Shown here: positions 58,896 to 63,999 of the stretch, in pieces
Position numbering within the stretch: position 1 is the stretch's first letter
Layout of the letters: each line of letters begins with the position of its first letter
Sequence record: OR983333.1
Strand: one strand, 5' to 3'
DNA from: Escherichia phage 1-6af
DNA: 64,000 nucleotides
Made by a program: the position numbers and the translations under genes
Notes under the pieces: model-generated
The model's database searches: none
Seen by the model: only the letters and a program-made list of their open reading frames with translations
Told to the model about the DNA's origin: nothing

Positions 58896-59139
58896 GTATC
58901 AATCTTTCACTTAACAGGTTAGCCAGTGACAAATCACCTTTGATATAGATGTCACGAAAATCAGCACGGGTAATTTCAAGGCCAGCAAATTTCAACCATT
59001 TTTTAGCTGACTGAAAATCCATTTTGCAAAAAGTGATAATAGGCACGATAAGCTGACCATCAAGCGTATTAAACATGATAGCAGTATCGCCAACAAAACA
59101 AGAAAAGTCGTTAGATAATTCAACTTCTTTAATAGCCAT
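58888..59139 (-). CDS. hypothetical protein
   Basis: 83-aa ORF; operon context. Confidence 0.4.
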   Translation of the reverse strand: MAIKEVELSNDFSCFVGDTAIMFNTLDGQLIVPIITFCKMDFQSAKKWLKFAGLEITRADFRDIYIKGDLSLANLLSERLIHD

Positions 59140-59175
59140 TATTTATACTCCCAAAAGATTGGCAAATTAATTTAT

Positions 59176-59667
59176 TCACTTACTAGCCTTAATGCAGTTG
59201 GCTAAATTAACGTGAACAGTATAAACAGCGTTGTCAGCGTTATTGTAAACAGTTGTGGCGATCATCGACTCATTAACCGGACCATAACTCACAAGATTAG
59301 TAACGGCTTTAACGTCTTCATAACGTTGTACAGTGCCAAATGTCACCATATCCATATCGTTATCGGTACGCTTAAGCACCAAATCACTGTTAGGCTGATT
59401 ATCTAGCGTTTTAGATTGAAAGAGAACGCCATCATTAGTAACGTTGCTAAATTTCATCTTTAACACGATGGAAGTGCCATCACTATCAGCACCGTTACAA
59501 ATCATCCAACCCTTATTGATGGAACTAGAGAAGACACTAGCCGCATCAGTTGCAGGAGTAGGACTAGCGATAGCCTTATCAGAAAGAGATGTGACCAGTG
59601 CACTAACACCAATCGCTGCAACTAGTGCATAACTTGCCAGATTAACTACCTGCATTGCTTTAGCCAT
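59176..59667 (-). CDS. secreted protein with signal peptide (first gene of leftward block)
   Basis: Signal peptide with AIAS cleavage-like site; GGAG RBS. Confidence 0.45.
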   Translation of the reverse strand: MAKAMQVVNLASYALVAAIGVSALVTSLSDKAIASPTPATDAASVFSSSINKGWMICNGADSDGTSIVLKMKFSNVTNDGVLFQSKTLDNQPNSDLVLKRTDNDMDMVTFGTVQRYEDVKAVTNLVSYGPVNESMIATTVYNNADNAVYTVHVNLANCIKASK

Positions 59668-59860
59668 TTCGTTACTCCTTAGATAGATTCAGTCAACTGT
59701 CATCAACTATATATTAAAGGAAAAGACTGTCAACCATCTATTTTCTAACTTTCTTGCATCCTACTGAAAACTAAAGGAATTTAATTTACTAAACTTTCCA
59801 TACTCAGAGAATCAGCTTACTTCTTATTGTTACTTTATAACACTACGGGTAACAGACCAA

Positions 59861-60330
59861 CAGACCAGGACAAACGGGGATACAACAACCGCAGGACAGA
59901 CCACGGGGAAACATGCAAGATAGTGCGGTAATAATATACCACTTAAATAATTGTATAACTCAAACATCAAAGACCATTCGCTACGCTCATGTACGCTGAA
60001 AAAAGAAAGTAATAAAAGAATATAATAACTGTTAATTACTATCTTTCCACTTAATTAATACATACATCATTATTGCACTCATAATCATTACTATTGAAAC
60101 TATTTACACTCAAACTATGGGGGGAATGCGACGCTAACGCTGCCATTGGAACGGTAACAATACGGTATTATTAGACCTGTTATGATTGTGCCTGTACTAG
60201 TTTATACAGTGCTAGCCTTTCTCTCACTCTTTAAAGGGGTACTAAATAAACGGGTAGGTAATGTATTGGGTAGTATACACGGGGGAATAATTACGGGGAG
60301 TAGGCACGGGGAAAGGTGGAACATGTAAAG
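59861..60330. repeat. CACGGGGA(A) and CAGACCA repeat cluster flanking an AT-rich core
   Basis: ACGGGGA at 59874, 59903, 60279, 60293, 60306; CAGACCA three times at 59853-59901; 300-bp AT-rich core between; divergent gene orientation on both sides. Confidence 0.5.
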
Positions 60331-60453
60331 GGAAGGTAAAGGCATTGCCAATAACCCTTTTTTAAATGAGGACTCCCCCTTTTTAGGAAACGCGCGGGAA
60401 GCGGCTAGCCCCACTCGGTCAAATCAGAATTTTAAACTCTTATATATAAGAAT

Positions 60454-60660
60454 ATGCCCCAACTTTATGTTGTGGATTTAAGCTTAAGAGAGGACTTAAT
60501 GAATCTAATTAAAGTATTTAGACGGATGAAGTGTAAGCACAATTACTATCTTCTTCGTAAAGCTTACGGGGATGAAAGAATACATGGTTTGTATCTATCA
60601 ACATGGAAGTGTAAGGAATGTGGTAAGTTGAGATTCAGTACGTGGGTGGATAAGCCTTAA
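60454..60660 (+). CDS. small zinc-ribbon protein
   Basis: CKHN ... CKECG Cys pairs; first rightward gene. Confidence 0.4.
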   Translation: MPQLYVVDLSLREDLMNLIKVFRRMKCKHNYYLLRKAYGDERIHGLYLSTWKCKECGKLRFSTWVDKP

Positions 60661-60874
60661 CGTGACATGGCCTTTATGGGGGTGCCTTAACATGAAGTCC
60701 CCTTTATGTCTTAACTTTATCAGAGGGATTTATGACTGAAGATGAATATGGTAGCTTCTCTGAAGAAGACTACGAAAATGAATACAGGTATGCTCGCGGG
60801 TGTCAATGTGAGGGTGCCTTTACGGGTAGGTCTTATGATGTGCCCTTTATACTCTTATTCAGAGGAGAAGAATT

Positions 60875-61141
60875 ATGAATTTAGTATTAGACTTTTTATC
60901 AGAGTTGATTCCACGGTTCAGAACGGAGAAATGTGCCTTCATTAAAGAATCCTCTGATAAGTATGGAGATGGTGAGATGATGGAACTCACTTGCATTGGT
61001 CGTCTGGTTGACTTAGGTGATGAAACAGATTTCGATGTTACGATGGATGTTAGCAGTTTAGGTTGGTTATTCTTCAGAGCATTCGTATCGTACAAATATG
61101 AAACATTTAAAGATTACAGCAAGGGAGGGACAGATGAATAA
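60875..61141 (+). CDS. hypothetical protein
   Basis: 88-aa ORF with AGGAGAAGAA RBS. Confidence 0.35.
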   Translation: MNLVLDFLSELIPRFRTEKCAFIKESSDKYGDGEMMELTCIGRLVDLGDETDFDVTMDVSSLGWLFFRAFVSYKYETFKDYSKGGTDE

Positions 61142-61766
61142 TAAAATAATCGCAGTTAATATGGAAGGTGTTTATGGAGGTAGCTTCCCTTCTGGTTCTC
61201 CTTTCCACACTAAAGCGATGGACCTTAACGAGTATAATTCACAGCTGTGTCGCTCTGGCTGTAGCTTACAACGTTTAGAAACTATGGGAAATGTTTCAGG
61301 ATTGGCTGTACAAGATTTATATAGTGGAAGTATTCTTAAACCAAATATTACGGAGAACAAAAACATGTTAGATTTGATTCATACTACTCGCCCTAACTCT
61401 AAAACTAAATCAGCACCATCTACTCTGGAAGTAGTTGAGTATGAGTCTACTAAACATGATCACCTCCCTGACTATGCTCGTGCAATGATTGAGATGATTG
61501 AAGAAGCTGAATATGAAATGCTCCATGATTACATTACCTCCAAAGATGAATGGCATCGTGATGTTCGAATCGAAGAAGATGGTACAGAAATAATTACGTG
61601 GATTCATAAGAGTGAGCTAGTAGACGACGCACTGCGAGACTACGAAAAATTTTTGGTCGACGGCTCTATTCTTTTAGAGGAAGAGAAGGGTGTAGAACTT
61701 CCGTGGGAAGGTGAGACGATTGCTCTAGGTAAGATGTTTAACCTGTCCGTTGGTGATTGTAAGTAA
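61134..61766 (+). CDS. hypothetical protein
   Basis: ATG 61134 preceded by AAGGGAGGGA; ORF-track start 61098 lacks an RBS. Confidence 0.4.
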   Translation: MNNKIIAVNMEGVYGGSFPSGSPFHTKAMDLNEYNSQLCRSGCSLQRLETMGNVSGLAVQDLYSGSILKPNITENKNMLDLIHTTRPNSKTKSAPSTLEVVEYESTKHDHLPDYARAMIEMIEEAEYEMLHDYITSKDEWHRDVRIEEDGTEIITWIHKSELVDDALRDYEKFLVDGSILLEEEKGVELPWEGETIALGKMFNLSVGDCK

Positions 61767-61822
61767 TATTTGCCTCCATTGGGAGGCTTTTTGTGTTGTT
61801 GATAATGTAGAAGGAGTATAAA

Positions 61823-62296
61823 ATGTTTGGAGAAAACGGAGAACTCACGCCTGCACAGGTAGCTGAGATTACAGGAAGATTACCCGGAGTAACGGAAGAA
61901 CTTGAAGGCCGTGGTATGAACCCAAGCAATGGGAAGTTTCAAAAGGGAAATAAATTCGGACGACCCAGAGGTAGTAGAGGTAAACTGACACAATTAATGT
62001 TGGACCGTGTTGCTGCAAGTCATTTGTCTCCTGATGAAGTGTTAATTCAAATTTACGAAGATCCTAATATTCCACCTGATCTTAGATTCAAGGCTGCATC
62101 AAAAGTTGCAGATCTGGTATATCCTAAGGCGGCCTCTGTTGAAGTTAAGATTGAGGAAGAGAATGTAATCAACGAAGAATCATTGAATGCACAAATCAAG
62201 GACTTCTTGACTGGAGCACTTGGTATCGACGTTATGCCTCCAGAAGAAGACAACTCTGAGGACGCTGAAAAGGGGGAGGAAGCGGACGAGAGTTAA
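61823..62296 (+). CDS. putative terminase small subunit
   Basis: 157-aa ORF immediately upstream of terL with basic N-terminal region and acidic C-terminus; assignment by position only. Confidence 0.3.
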   Translation: MFGENGELTPAQVAEITGRLPGVTEELEGRGMNPSNGKFQKGNKFGRPRGSRGKLTQLMLDRVAASHLSPDEVLIQIYEDPNIPPDLRFKAASKVADLVYPKAASVEVKIEEENVINEESLNAQIKDFLTGALGIDVMPPEEDNSEDAEKGEEADES

Positions 62297-62457: not shown

Positions 62458-63999
62458 ATGTCATTAGATAAACAAATTTATGAAGCTCTAACTGGTAACA
62501 ACCTTAGTGTAGACGAAAAGAAAGCACTATTGAATATGTTGAAAGAGCGTGACCAATGGAGGAAGTATAATAGGATTTTGTCTTTCAAGGCGTACGACTT
62601 CCAAAAGAAATTTTATGCAGCAGGATTGAAGCATCGCTTTAGATTCTTGTGTGCAGCGAACCGTGTTGGTAAATCTTACAGCGAGGCATATGAGTTTGCT
62701 TGTCATGTCACAGGTCGCTACCCAACTTGGTGGACAGGATATAAATTTAAAAGACCTATCTTAGCATGGGCAGTTGGTATTACAGGGGATTCCACAAGGA
62801 AAGTATTGCAAAAGGAATTGTTTGGTACACCTATCGGAAAGGATACAAACTTATTGGGGACAGGTGTCATTCCTCGTGATGCTATCGTCATTGACACGAT
62901 AGAACGAGATGGTAACAAACTTCAAATCGTACAAATTAAACATCAAAATGAGAGAGGAGAATTTGACGGTTTAAGTACATTAGAATTCCGTTCAACCCAA
63001 CAGGGTGAACACACATTGATGGGTGCGACAGTTGACTACATTTGGTTAGACGAAGAAGATCCATACGAGTCTATGGCTATATTCGCACAGTGCGTCACAC
63101 GTACACTCACAACTAAAGGTCTAGTTACAATTACAGCTACACCAGAGAACGGTTTAACGGAACTGGTAGATAAATTTATGAAAGGTGAAGGGGATGAGAA
63201 CACAGGTTCTCTATATTTCCAGAATGCTTCTTGGTGGGATGCTCATGTAGACCTAGGTGGACATATCACTGACCAAGATATAAAAGATATGACTGAAGGT
63301 ATTCCAGCGTGGCAATTAGAAATGCGTTCGAAAGGTATGCCATTGTTAGGAAGTGGTTTGATATATGATGTATCGGATGACACAATTAAATGTGAGCCAT
63401 TCGAAATTCCCGATACGTGGAAACGTGTCTGTGCAATTGATATTGGTATTGATCACCCAACTGCTGCTGTTTGGACAGCTTACGACGCAAACACGGATAC
63501 TATCTATGTTTACGACTCATATAAAGAAGGTGGCTTTACTCCAGTGTATCATGCTCCAGCTATTAATGGTCGTGGTCAGTGGATTCCTGTCATCCTACCG
63601 CACGATGCGGACAATATTGAGAAAGGTAGTGGCTCATCTGTTGCTCAATTCTATAAGAATGCAGGGGTTAACGTACAGAGTGAGACCTTCTACAACAAAA
63701 TTGGAATGGATGGTAAAAAGAACTTCTTTGTAGAACCGGGAATCACAGATATCCGAGAAAGAATGATGAGTGGACGCTTTAAAATCTTTAACACAGCCGC
63801 TAACGCTAAGCTATTCGAAGAGAAAGCTAGATATCACCGTAAGGTTGGTAAGATTATTAAAGAATATGATGACTTAATGGATGCAATGCGCTATTCAGCG
63901 TGCTCTGTTACACATCGTGGTCGCTCTAAACATGATGTTAGCTACGGAAGTGCTTCTCTGTATGAGGCAAACGTAAGCAGATGGAATCAGAGTTACTAA
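62458..63999 (+). CDS. terL: terminase large subunit
   Basis: Walker A AANRVGKSY, Walker B YIWLDEED, C-terminal RNase-H-like nuclease segment AIDIGIDHPTAA. Confidence 0.8.
   Translation: MSLDKQIYEALTGNNLSVDEKKALLNMLKERDQWRKYNRILSFKAYDFQKKFYAAGLKHRFRFLCAANRVGKSYSEAYEFACHVTGRYPTWWTGYKFKRPILAWAVGITGDSTRKVLQKELFGTPIGKDTNLLGTGVIPRDAIVIDTIERDGNKLQIVQIKHQNERGEFDGLSTLEFRSTQQGEHTLMGATVDYIWLDEEDPYESMAIFAQCVTRTLTTKGLVTITATPENGLTELVDKFMKGEGDENTGSLYFQNASWWDAHVDLGGHITDQDIKDMTEGIPAWQLEMRSKGMPLLGSGLIYDVSDDTIKCEPFEIPDTWKRVCAIDIGIDHPTAAVWTAYDANTDTIYVYDSYKEGGFTPVYHAPAINGRGQWIPVILPHDADNIEKGSGSSVAQFYKNAGVNVQSETFYNKIGMDGKKNFFVEPGITDIRERMMSGRFKIFNTAANAKLFEEKARYHRKVGKIIKEYDDLMDAMRYSACSVTHRGRSKHDVSYGSASLYEANVSRWNQSY

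What the first reader, a model, noticed from the sequence alone, without database searches (positions are those of the whole stretch)
59668..60453. Divergent control region with CACGGGGA(A) and CAGACCA repeats around an AT-rich core
This is the switch point between the leftward early block and the rightward terminase-side block. Five ACGGGGA-type copies (two extended copies CACGGGGAAACATGCAAG and CACGGGGAAAGGTGGAACATGTAAAG lie about 400 bp apart) and three CAGACCA copies flank about 300 bp of AT-rich sequence. The geometry fits an origin, a packaging/terminus region, or a bidirectional early promoter region with operator repeats.
Basis: seen in the sequence. Interest (0 to 1): 0.55.

Follow-up and report, generated by a model that had tools for sequence, protein, structure and literature searches.

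The report
Phage genome end with heptamer repeats
This stretch is where the linear chromosome of a phiEco32-like E. coli phage begins and ends: it holds the family's known 193-bp terminal repeat and an early promoter, plus short repeated 7-base motifs that are probably signals for cutting and packaging the DNA, much as in phage T7.

Summary
All five ACGGGG copies in the finding lie within 59874-60312. The 64-kb window has only one more on the + strand, inside gene 1. The three CAGACCA copies and the low-GC core are also present.

The window is a Kuravirus (phiEco32-like) podophage. By homology to ends mapped in phiEco32, YF01, Paul and SU10, window 60214-60406 is the family's 193-bp direct terminal repeat (DTR). 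The finding is therefore the concatemer junction, that is, the genome terminus.

The right-hand repeat cluster lies inside the DTR, at +37, +66, +80 and +93 from the left end. The left-hand cluster lies 311-369 bp upstream, in unique right-end DNA. A consensus sigma-70 early promoter (59733..59706, minus strand) drives the leftward genes.

The heptamer (general form AYGGGKA) is conserved across Gordonclarkvirinae in three flavours. A similar motif occurs in Salmonella phage 7-11. Both DTR boundaries sit in the same heptamer, GCT^AGCC.

T7 has the same layout, with CCTAAAG heptamers inside and beside its terminal repeat.

My best reading, which is inferred, is that these are cis-acting signals for terminase recognition and DTR generation. 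An origin or a regulatory role is not excluded. The terminus is already known. I found no description of the heptamer arrays in the papers I could read. Interest is modest.

The parts
59176..59667 (-). First leftward early gene (163 aa, signal-peptide-like N-terminus). It is the homologue of the last gene at the right end of phiEco32-like genomes.
   Evidence: ORF list. PHROG 21410/36409, unknown function. It is 78-94% identical in G-type relatives.
59706..59733 (-). Early sigma-70 promoter: TTGACA, 16 nt, TATAGT (11 of 12 matches). It reads leftward into the early genes, about 670 bp inside the right genome end.
   Evidence: Promoter scan. It is near-identical (about 3 mismatches in 28 nt) to the early promoter listed for SU10 upstream of CDS125 (S2 Table, PMC4281155). 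It is conserved in 11 of 13 aligned relatives.
59845..59909 (+). Upstream heptamer cluster in unique right-end DNA. ACGGGTA (59845), ACGGGGA (59874) and ACGGGGA (59903) are spaced 29 bp apart. Three CAGACCA copies (59853, 59861, 59897) are interleaved.
   Evidence: The heptamers are conserved in phiEco32, YF01, NJ01, SGF2, SR02, XT32 and 4E8, and are replaced by ATGGGTA/ACGGGTA in T-type phages. Bas92 keeps only the last copy.
59922..60122 (.). Low-GC core (27% GC at 59922-60100). It holds four blocks that are nearly invariant across 13 relatives: 59924-59952 (GCGGTAATAATATACCACTTAAATAAT), 59996-60018 (CGCTGAAAAAAGAAAGTAATAAA), 60047-60086 (CCACTTAATTAATACATACATCATTATTGCACTCATAATC) and 60110-60122 (CAAACTATGGGGG). 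Function is unknown.
   Evidence: Composition. Alignment conservation. CCACTTAA(A/T)TAAT is repeated 108 bp apart (D4).
60123..60210 (.). Variable spacer just outside the left boundary of the terminal repeat.
   Evidence: There is almost no conservation among the 13 relatives here.
60211..60217 (+). Left DTR boundary, GCT^AGCC. The mature left genome end starts at 60214.
   Evidence: The records of phiEco32, Paul, WFI101126, CHD5UKE1, NC-B and SU7 start with AGCCTTTC. 4E8 and ES17 start with GGCCT.
60214..60406 (+). 193-bp direct terminal repeat. There is a single copy in this circularly permuted or concatemer-like assembly.
   Evidence: Alignment to the two ends of phiEco32. The records of SU10, phiEco32 and YF01 end at query position 739, which is window 60406. 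DTRs are annotated in YF01, 4E8, NC-B and Paul. Boundary table. Literature: 193-bp DTR by restriction mapping and primer walking in phiEco32, nanopore reads in YF01, and PhageTerm in Paul (PMC9965538). Blunt ends with sharp read drop-off in SU10 (PMC4281155).
60250..60312 (+). Heptamer cluster inside the DTR: ACGGGTA (+37), ACGGGGG (+66), ACGGGGA (+80) and ACGGGGA (+93).
   Evidence: The +37 and +66 positions are kept in all three DTR flavours.
60355..60385 (+). Most conserved part of the DTR: CCCTTTTTTA, N12, CCCTTTTTA, around GAGGACTCCCCC (60368-60379).
   Evidence: Invariant columns. Single copy in the window. The internal direct repeat was described for SU10. The 'highly conserved region ~130-170' of the DTR was noted for 30 phages (PMC9965538). 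A related GAGGAC...CCCCCTTTT element is present in phage 7-11.
60404..60410 (+). Right DTR boundary, GCT^AGCC. The mature right genome end stops at 60406.
   Evidence: GCTAGCC occurs only twice on the + strand of the window, at the two boundaries.
60407..60498 (+). Conserved leader upstream of gene 1, including the palindrome TCTTATATATAAGA (60438-60451). It is only a weak sigma-70 match (8 of 12).
   Evidence: (I9). For SU10 it is described only as a 'potential sigma-70 promoter'.
60499..60660 (+). Gene 1, a small Zn-ribbon-like protein. The likely start is the ATG at 60499; the earliest possible start is 60454. It contains the sixth ACGGGG copy (60566) as coding sequence.
   Evidence: The copy is absent from the T-type allele of gene 1.

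Best explanation
The interval is the concatemer junction (genome terminus) of a phiEco32-like Kuravirus.

Reading left to right, it holds:
- the sigma-70 early promoter that reads inward from the right genome end;
- a cluster of three AYGGGKA heptamers in unique right-end DNA;
- a low-GC block with conserved elements;
- a variable spacer;
- the 193-bp direct terminal repeat (60214-60406), which carries four more heptamers at +37 to +93 and a highly conserved GAGGACTCCCCC core.

Both repeat boundaries lie in the same heptamer, GCT^AGCC.

Proposed mechanism, inferred by analogy with T7/T3:
1. Replication gives concatemers with one copy of the repeat between genomes.
2. The phage terminase (P22-like TerL at 62458-63999, with the putative small subunit at 61823-62296) or an accessory protein recognises the heptamer arrays and/or the conserved core.
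3. It cuts or nicks at the two CT^AG sites.
4. The 193 bp between them is duplicated by DNA synthesis, so that each packaged genome carries the repeat at both ends.

What is shown: the position of the repeat and its boundaries (by homology to mapped ends), the promoter match, the clustering and conservation of the heptamers, and the shared boundary sequence.

What is inferred: which protein binds the heptamers, and that their role is packaging.
For: Terminus:
- phiEco32's two ends align to 60214-60406.
- The SU10, phiEco32 and YF01 records end at window 60406.
- Independent records start at the homologous base.
- Published mapping is cited.

Heptamers:
- Clustering has P of 1e-7 to 1e-9, and all copies are on one strand.
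- They are conserved in 20 or more Gordonclarkvirinae while the flanks diverge, to 69% identity in 4E8.
- The first two DTR copies are always at +37 and +66 from the end.
- Where the DTR cluster uses ATGGGTA, the upstream cluster does too, in 13 of 14 genomes that have both clusters.

Boundaries:
- GCTAGCC occurs on the + strand only at the two boundaries.
- Relatives keep CT^AG(C/G)(C/T).

T7 parallel:
- CCTAAAG-type heptamers occur 5 times upstream of, 4 times inside and at least 13 times downstream of the 160-bp terminal repeat.
- All are in one orientation, and CTATCT is present at both boundaries.

Phage 7-11 (a different family) has four CTGTATGGATAG-type repeats followed by a GAGGAC...CCCCCTTTT core in the equivalent intergenic region.

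The putative small terminase gene lies 1.4 kb downstream. It has a weak DUF5681 match. YF01's authors annotate gp3-4 as terminase small and large subunits.
Against: - No binding or packaging experiment exists for these motifs in any relative that I could find.
- To my knowledge the function of T7's own heptamer arrays has never been established, so the analogy transfers architecture rather than a proven mechanism.
- The putative small terminase is 90-100% identical across motif flavours. Its two flavour-linked residues (NPSN versus EPST at 33-36) are contradicted by 4E8.
- ECBP2 combines a G-type upstream cluster with a T-type DTR cluster. The two clusters therefore need not match.
- Bas92 keeps only one upstream copy, so the upstream cluster may be partly dispensable.
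- The upstream cluster is 311-369 bp from the boundary, further than T7's arrays.
- The flavours are few lineages, not many independent events.
Confidence: 0.45

Rival explanations
1. Replication origin. The heptamers are iteron-like binding sites for a phage initiator. That could be an early protein such as the fast-evolving gp5 (61098-61766). Bound on both sides, it would melt the low-GC core between the clusters.
For: - Two same-strand repeat clusters bracket a 27% GC block that contains nearly invariant elements.
- gp5 is encoded nearby in the early left-end operon.
- gp5 splits into 73-93%, 58% and about 40% identity classes that mostly follow the DTR flavour.
- No origin has been mapped in this family (mention none).
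- From memory: T7 has secondary origins at its end-proximal promoters.
Against: - The repeat core is 7 bp with 13-29 bp spacing, unlike typical 17-22 bp iterons phased at two helical turns.
- There is no DnaA box (up to 1 mismatch) and no IHF consensus in the interval.
- 4E8 has the G-type DTR with the 40%-class gp5.
- gp5 has no Pfam domain, and the AlphaFold model is unusable (pLDDT 46.7), so there is no sign of a DNA-binding fold.
- The GC-skew minimum here is fully explained by the switch in transcription direction.
- One cluster is inside the terminal repeat, at fixed distances from the physical end. An origin does not require that.
Confidence: 0.2
2. Transcription control. The heptamers are upstream binding sites for a phage or host regulator that activates, silences or loops the two outward-facing early promoters. 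These are the leftward promoter at 59733..59706 and a putative promoter for gene 1 near 60420-60450.
For: - Each cluster lies 110-190 bp upstream of a promoter or putative promoter that faces away from it.
- The phage is known to shut off early sigma-70 transcription (Pavlova 2012, as summarised in PMC8948821).
- A near-consensus gp36-type element, TAATGTATT, lies among the DTR heptamers at 60259-60267.
Against: - The sites do not overlap the -35/-10 elements.
- Early shut-off in phiEco32 is attributed to gp79 acting on RNA polymerase, not to a DNA-binding repressor.
- The six mapped gp36 promoters are upstream of genes 6, 13, 26, 40, 58 and 68, not here.
- The rightward promoter is weak, 8 of 12.
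- The TAATGTATT element is not conserved: it is TAATGAATA in phiEco32 and absent in T-type phages.
- The fixed +37/+66 register relative to the DNA end is not explained.
Confidence: 0.15
3. A role at the DNA ends of the virion or during infection rather than in packaging. For example, sites for an end-binding, end-protecting or ejection-pausing factor. Alternatively, no sequence-specific function at all, with the repeats being relics of local duplication kept by hitch-hiking with the essential terminal repeat.
For: - The DTR cluster is present 37-99 bp from both physical ends.
- The right-end layout (end, repeat, heptamers, inward-facing strong host promoter) resembles T7's leading end, where host RNA polymerase pulls the genome in (for the T7 layout; the mechanism is from memory).
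- Copy number and spacing vary between lineages.
Against: - The heptamer core is kept while the surrounding sequence diverges, and across genera and even in 7-11. This argues for selection on the motif itself.
- Strict single-strand orientation and conserved +37/+66 positions argue against relics.
Confidence: 0.12

Closest known systems
phiEco32 / Kuravirus 193-bp direct terminal repeat (Savalia et al. 2008, as cited; SU10, YF01 and Paul papers)
   Same: - The sequence is homologous and has the same length (193 bp).
- It has the same boundaries.
- It has the same position, between the last leftward early gene and gene 1.
- It has the same conserved 130-170 core and internal CCCTTTTTTA repeat.
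   Different: - Nothing essential differs. This is a new isolate-level copy, 98% identical to phage 1-6bf.
- The papers I could read describe the repeat, its conserved core and the early promoter, but not the AYGGGKA heptamer arrays or the shared boundary heptamer.
- Savalia 2008 and Pavlova 2012 were not available, so prior description there cannot be excluded.
Phage T7 concatemer junction: 160-bp terminal repetition with CCTAAAG heptamer arrays (called SRL and SRR by Dunn and Studier 1983, from memory)
   Same: - It is a short exact terminal repeat.
- One heptamer is repeated in one orientation both inside the repeat and in adjacent unique DNA.
- A short sequence is shared by the two boundaries.
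- Strong host promoters read inward from the end.
   Different: - The motif and the proteins are unrelated. The Kuravirus TerL is P22-like according to the Paul and WFI101126 annotations.
- T7 has arrays on both sides, directly abutting the repeat and with many more copies. Here there is one upstream cluster 311-369 bp away and none downstream.
- T7 couples processing to its own RNA polymerase, whereas these phages use host polymerase with a phage sigma factor.
Terminase recognition sites made of short repeats around a cut site (P1 pac hexamers, SPP1 pacL/pacR, lambda cosB R sites); from memory
   Same: - Clusters of a short motif lie on either side of a defined cleavage position.
- The terminase genes are encoded next to the site.
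- Lineage-specific motif variants exist.
   Different: - Those systems make headful or cohesive-end genomes, not exact direct repeats.
- Small-subunit binding is demonstrated there and untested here.
- The small-subunit to site covariation seen for lambda versus phage 21 is not seen clearly here.
Iteron-type origins (lambda ori, plasmid oriV); from memory
   Same: Direct repeats lie next to an AT-rich block.
   Different: - The core is much shorter, at 7 bp.
- The spacing is irregular, at 13-29 bp.
- There is no DnaA or IHF site.
- No identifiable initiator is present.
- One cluster lies inside a terminal repeat.

Membership tests
Kuravirus/phiEco32-type direct terminal repeat (genome terminus) | Sequence homologous to the experimentally mapped phiEco32 terminal repeat | tested here: met
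   The phiEco32 record begins and ends with the same 193 bp. These align to window 60214-60406.
Kuravirus/phiEco32-type direct terminal repeat (genome terminus) | Same length and same boundary positions as in relatives with mapped ends | tested here: met
   The length is 193 bp. The left boundary is ...GCT|AGCCTTTC and the right is ...GCGGCT|AGCC. The SU10, phiEco32 and YF01 records end at window 60406, and Paul (PhageTerm) starts at the homologous base.
Kuravirus/phiEco32-type direct terminal repeat (genome terminus) | Located between the last leftward early gene with its sigma-70 promoter and rightward gene 1 / terminase block | tested here: met
   Gene order in the window matches phiEco32, NJ01 and others. 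The promoter is near-identical (about 3 mismatches in 28 nt) to SU10's listed early promoter.
Kuravirus/phiEco32-type direct terminal repeat (genome terminus) | Physically duplicated at both ends of this phage's virion DNA | not testable with these tools
   The window holds one copy. Reads or restriction mapping of virion DNA are needed.
T7-type concatemer junction with heptamer arrays | Same short motif, in one orientation, both inside the terminal repeat and in flanking unique DNA | tested here: met
   Window: 4 copies inside and 3 upstream, all on the + strand. T7: 4 inside, 5 upstream and at least 13 downstream.
T7-type concatemer junction with heptamer arrays | Arrays directly abutting the repeat on both sides | tested here: not met
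   The upstream cluster is 311-369 bp from the boundary. There is no array downstream of 60406; the only further copy is coding sequence at 60566.
T7-type concatemer junction with heptamer arrays | Homology of sequence or of packaging proteins to T7 | not tested
   The motifs differ (ACGGGGA versus CCTAAAG). TerL is annotated as P22-like/Terminase_6 in relatives. No direct comparison with T7 gp18/gp19 was run.
Terminase small-subunit recognition site (pac/cosB-like) | Repeated motifs flanking a defined cleavage position | tested here: met
   Relative to the left boundary at 60214, the upstream cluster is at -369 to -311 and the DTR cluster at +37 to +93.
Terminase small-subunit recognition site (pac/cosB-like) | Motif variants co-vary with the small terminase | tested here: inconclusive
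   gp6 residues 33-36 are NPSN in G-type phages and EPST in T-type phages. 4E8 (G-type DTR) has EPST. The lineages are few.
Terminase small-subunit recognition site (pac/cosB-like) | Direct binding by the small subunit, and requirement for packaging | not testable with these tools
   This needs EMSA or footprinting and transduction or packaging assays.
Iteron-type replication origin | Three or more direct repeats of about 17-22 bp, helically phased | tested here: not met
   The conserved core is 7 bp. Spacings are 29, 29 and 29, 14, 13 bp. Flanks are not conserved between copies.
Iteron-type replication origin | Adjacent AT-rich unwinding region | tested here: met
   59922-60100 is 27% GC, with a minimum of 20%.
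Iteron-type replication origin | Host factor sites (DnaA, IHF) or a cognate initiator gene | tested here: not met
   There is no DnaA box with up to 1 mismatch and no IHF consensus in the interval. No neighbour has a recognisable DNA-binding or initiator domain.
Divergent promoter region with operators | Two divergent promoters | tested here: inconclusive
   The leftward promoter matches 11 of 12 and is near-identical to the SU10 list entry. The rightward candidate matches only 8 of 12.
Divergent promoter region with operators | Repeats overlapping or adjoining the -35/-10 elements | tested here: not met
   The nearest heptamer is 112 bp upstream of the leftward -35. The DTR cluster is about 110-190 bp upstream of the gene 1 leader.

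The most novel reading that the evidence does not exclude
Three elements together may form the complete cis-acting code by which a P22-like terminase makes exact T7-style direct terminal repeats:
- the AYGGGKA heptamer arrays;
- the invariant GAGGACTCCCCC core;
- the identical CT^AGCC sequence at both repeat boundaries.

Natural G-type, T-type and mixed (ECBP2) variants would provide ready-made specificity swaps. [quoted passage not shown] If this reading is right, that question would become directly testable in an easily grown coliphage family.
Probability: 0.3. Interest if true: 0.55.

Novelty: new member of a known kind. Interest (0 to 1): 0.3.

Why it matters
- **Practical use.** It fixes where this phage's genome starts and ends (60214 and 60406). 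That is needed for correct annotation and engineering of Kuravirus therapeutic candidates.
- **Correction to the record.** It shows that the 'control region' is mainly a chromosome-end structure.
- **Wider question.** How terminases produce exact direct terminal repeats is still poorly understood. This family offers compact, conserved candidate signals: heptamer arrays at fixed distances from the end, an invariant core, and the same cut-site heptamer at both boundaries. It also offers natural variants.
- **A general pattern.** The parallel with T7's unexplained heptamer arrays suggests such arrays may be a general feature of short-DTR podophages rather than a T7 curiosity.

Tried and rejected
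1. **Structured or known RNA.** There is no tRNA. There is no Rfam match apart from one chance-level hit outside the interval. Neither strand has an unusual folding energy (an earlier attempt, timed out).
2. **Hidden coding sequence.** The small ORFs over the repeats (60182-60328 on +, 60202-60414 on -) are not preserved. The DTR varies by indels, at 193, 206 and 250 bp.
3. **Finding the binding protein by covariation.**
   - gp1 alleles do not follow motif flavour.
   - gp5 and gp6 follow it except in 4E8.
   - ECBP2 mixes flavours between the two clusters.
   - The result is not conclusive.
4. **gp5 as a DNA-binding protein.** It has no Pfam domain and no PDB relative. The AlphaFold2 model from a 29-sequence alignment has mean pLDDT 46.7, so no fold search was run. 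The 'ABC transporter' label in databases is unsupported.
5. **Late (gp36-type) promoter in the interval.** There is only a one-mismatch match, TAATGTATT, at 60259. It is not conserved in phiEco32 or T-type phages. Across the window such one-mismatch matches are at chance level. The real late promoter for the terminase block is at 61803.
6. **The 'extended' 18-26 nt repeat copies.** Similarity beyond CACGGGGAAA is not conserved in relatives.
7. **CAGACCA as an independent repeat.** Only the copy abutting the third heptamer is conserved.
8. **DnaA and IHF sites.** None were found.
9. **Primary phiEco32 papers.** Savalia 2008 and Pavlova 2012 are not held in the library.
10. **IMG/VR scans.** They added few relatives.
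Full report
**What the window is.**
A megablast of 59000-61200 finds 98 phage records. All are Escherichia or Shigella podophages of the phiEco32 group (Kuravirus, Gordonclarkvirinae). The best is phage 1-6bf at 98.5% identity. The interval 59668-60453 is the non-coding gap between a leftward 163-aa gene (59176-59667) and the first small rightward gene. The terminase large subunit follows at 62458-63999. GC skew changes sign here, as expected where transcription direction switches.

**Checking the observation.**
- The repeats are as described. ACGGGGA is at 59874, 59903, 60293 and 60306. ACGGGGG is at 60279.
- The whole 64-kb window holds only one more ACGGGGA, at 60566 inside gene 1.
- Four of 5 exact copies fall in 786 bp, which has a binomial P near 1e-7.
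- With the wider form ACGGG[GT]A, six of eleven copies are in the interval (P near 1.5e-9), and all are on the + strand.
- CAGACCA occurs three times (59853, 59861, 59897; 3 of 12 in the window).
- The DNA between the left cluster and 60213 is 33% GC. The stretch 59922-60100 is 27% GC, with a minimum of 20%.
- The similarity of the two 'extended' copies beyond CACGGGGAAA is not kept in relatives, so it is probably chance.

**The key result: this is the genome terminus.**
- The phiEco32 reference record is linear. It starts and ends with the same 193 bases, AGCCTTTCTC...GCGAGCGGCT.
- These align to window 60214-60406.
- In a blastn of the interval against all phage records, the matches to SU10, phiEco32 and YF01 run to the last base of those records. 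They stop at query position 739, which is window 60406.
- The records of Paul (ends predicted by PhageTerm), WFI101126, CHD5UKE1, NC-B and SU7 start with the homologous AGCCTTTC. 4E8 and ES17 start with GGCCT at the same homologous base. YF01, 4E8, NC-B and Paul annotate a direct terminal repeat there.
- According to the literature:
  - the 193-bp repeat was mapped in phiEco32 by restriction profiling, primer walking and subcloning;
  - it was seen on full-length nanopore reads in YF01;
  - it was predicted by PhageTerm in Paul;
  - it was found by similarity in 30 phages, with a highly conserved stretch at about 130-170 (PMC9965538);
  - SU10 reads drop off sharply at both ends, indicating blunt ends (PMC4281155).
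- The window carries a single copy, as expected for a permuted or concatemer-style assembly.

**Anatomy, left to right.**
1. **Early promoter.** A sigma-70 promoter lies on the minus strand: TTGACA, 16 nt, TATAGT, at 59733..59706. It is near-identical (about 3 mismatches in 28 nt) to the early promoter listed for SU10 upstream of its last gene.
2. **Upstream heptamer cluster.** ACGGGTA, ACGGGGA and ACGGGGA lie at 59845, 59874 and 59903, 29 bp apart.
3. **Low-GC block.** It contains four nearly invariant elements (59924-59952, 59996-60018, 60047-60086, 60110-60122), followed by an unconserved spacer.
4. **The terminal repeat (60214-60406).** Heptamers lie at +37, +66, +80 and +93 from the end. 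The invariant GAGGACTCCCCC core sits between two CCCTTTTT(T)A repeats (60355-60385).
5. **Leader of gene 1.** It is conserved and carries the palindrome TCTTATATATAAGA (60438-60451). It is only a weak sigma-70 match, 8 of 12.

The late gp36-type promoter for the terminase block (TAATGTAGA) is at 61803, outside the finding.

**Conservation and variation of the heptamer.**
I compared about 24 Gordonclarkvirinae genomes, counting the window. The general motif is AYGGGKA. The repeat comes in three flavours:
- **G-type** (193 bp): ACGGGTA at +37, then ACGGGGA three times. Found in the window, phiEco32, NJ01, SGF2, XT32, SR02, YF01, Paul, ES17 and others.
- **T-type** (250 bp): ACGGGTA at +37, then ATGGGTA three or four times. 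Found in NC-B, SU7, ECBP2, TH42, TH43 and 101114BS3.
- **A third type** (206 bp) with about six mixed copies. Found in 4E8, KBNP1711 and EP335.

The +37 and +66 positions are constant in all three. The motif survives where the flanks have diverged to about 69-74% identity.

The upstream cluster follows the same flavour in 13 of 14 genomes where both clusters were seen. ECBP2 is the exception: its upstream cluster is the G-rich type seen in 4E8 and its DTR cluster is T-type. Bas92 retains a single upstream copy. These flavours represent a few lineages, not many independent events.

Salmonella phage 7-11 belongs to a different family. In its equivalent 1.7-kb intergenic region it has four CTGTATGGATAG-type repeats, followed about 200 bp later by GAGGAC...CCCCCTTTT. 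The layout is therefore old.

**Boundaries.**
In the window both ends of the repeat lie in the heptamer GCT^AGCC (60211-60217 and 60404-60410). These are the only two + strand copies in 64 kb. Relatives keep CT^AG(C/G)(C/T) at both boundaries. This fits one sequence-specific cutting or nicking activity acting twice.

**Comparison with T7.**
I rebuilt the T7 concatemer junction from the two ends of NC_001604.
- The 160-bp repeat contains four CCTAAAG-type heptamers.
- Five more lie 70-157 bp upstream, and at least thirteen follow downstream.
- All are in one orientation.
- Both boundaries share CTATCT.

The Kuravirus junction is a sparser version of the same design, built from an unrelated motif. 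The right end of the Kuravirus genome runs: end, repeat, heptamers, then an inward-facing strong host promoter. This also mirrors T7's leading left end.

**Mechanism.**
I consider it most likely (about 0.45) that the following are cis-acting signals for terminase recognition and for generating the repeat from concatemers, as proposed for T7/T3:
- the heptamer arrays;
- the conserved core;
- the two CT^AG sites.

That the region is the terminus and carries the family's DTR I hold at about 0.9. The binding protein is unknown.
- The putative small terminase (61823-62296) has a weak DUF5681 match. YF01's authors annotate gp3-4 as terminase small and large subunits.
- It is 90-100% identical across flavours. 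Its two flavour-linked residues are contradicted by 4E8.
- The fast-evolving gp5 tracks flavour equally imperfectly. It shows no recognisable fold.

**Rivals.**
- **Iteron-like origin.** It is supported by the low-GC block and its conserved elements. It is weakened by the 7-bp core, the irregular spacing, and the lack of DnaA or IHF sites or of an initiator.
- **Upstream regulatory sites for the two outward promoters.** The geometry is suggestive, but the sites are 110-190 bp from the promoters, and early shut-off is attributed to gp79 acting on RNA polymerase.
- **An end-associated role during ejection, or no role at all.**

None of these can be excluded without experiments.

**Novelty.**
The terminal repeat, its conserved core, its internal T-run repeat and the early promoter are already published for this family. 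In the papers I could read, the heptamer arrays, their three flavours and the shared boundary heptamer are not mentioned. I file this as a new member of a known kind: a short-DTR concatemer junction with heptamer arrays, as in T7. Interest is modest. [quoted passage not shown]

Noticed in passing
window 60211-60217 and 60404-60410: Both boundaries of the terminal repeat lie in the identical heptamer GCT^AGCC. These are the only two + strand copies in the 64-kb window. Relatives keep CT^AG(C/G)(C/T) at both boundaries. T7's two boundaries likewise share CTATCT.
   Followed up: partly
window 61803-61811 (+), just upstream of 61823-62296: TAATGTAGA matches the gp36 (phage sigma factor) late promoter listed for SU10 between CDS3 and CDS4. 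It sits about 11 nt before the start of the putative small terminase gene. The true late promoter of the terminase block is therefore outside the finding.
   Followed up: partly
window 60259-60267 (+), inside the terminal repeat: TAATGTATT matches the gp36 promoter consensus tAATGTAtA at 8 of 9 positions. It is shared by SGF2, XT32 and Paul. It is TAATGAATA in phiEco32 and absent in T-type phages. Window-wide, one-mismatch matches are at chance level.
   Followed up: partly
window 59924-60122: The 'AT-rich core' is not a featureless spacer. Four blocks are nearly invariant across 13 relatives of three genera, including a CCACTTAA(A/T)TAAT pair 108 bp apart and CGCTGAAAAA. Their function is unknown. 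Bas92 carries a tandem duplication of the GAAAAGAATAAAAGAAACGCTGAAAAA block.
   Followed up: partly
window 60438-60451: The perfect palindrome TCTTATATATAAGA lies in the conserved leader of gene 1, just outside the right boundary of the terminal repeat. It is conserved, with small changes, in most relatives.
   Followed up: no
window 61098-61766 (gp5 homologue): Databases label this protein 'ABC transporter'. It has no Pfam hit and no PDB relative, and its AlphaFold2 model is low-confidence (pLDDT 46.7). It is by far the most variable protein of the left-end block, at 39-93% identity, while neighbouring TerL and gp6 stay at 90% or above.
   Followed up: partly
L010 (ECBP2 left end) and L054 (ECBP2 right end): ECBP2 is mosaic at the junction. 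Its terminal repeat is the 250-bp T-type of SU7 and NC-B. Its upstream heptamer cluster and the start of the AT core are the 4E8/KBNP1711 type. Its gene 1 is the window's allele.
   Followed up: partly
L051 (Salmonella phage 7-11) 907-990 and 1193-1225: The 1.75-kb intergenic region before the phi32_6 homologue has four CTGTATGGATAG-type direct repeats and, downstream, GAGGACGACCCACTTCCCCCTTTT. This resembles the Kuravirus DTR core. It may mark the unmapped terminus of 7-11.
   Followed up: no
window 60566-60572: The sixth ACGGGG copy is coding sequence of gene 1 (K-A-Y-G-D-E-R). It is kept in both E. coli alleles of gene 1 but not in the T-type phages' allele, so it is probably not part of the array.
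   Followed up: partly
window 59176-59667 (-): The first early gene at the right genome end encodes a 163-aa protein with a hydrophobic, signal-peptide-like N-terminus. This suggests an exported early protein. It is only 43% identical in T-type phages.
   Followed up: no
L045 / L005 (phage SU7): The SU7 paper reports a 53-bp DTR and cautions about it. The record's left end carries the full 250-bp T-type repeat sequence seen in NC-B, while the right end stops after about 53 bp of it. The short value therefore looks like an assembly or trimming artefact.
   Followed up: partly
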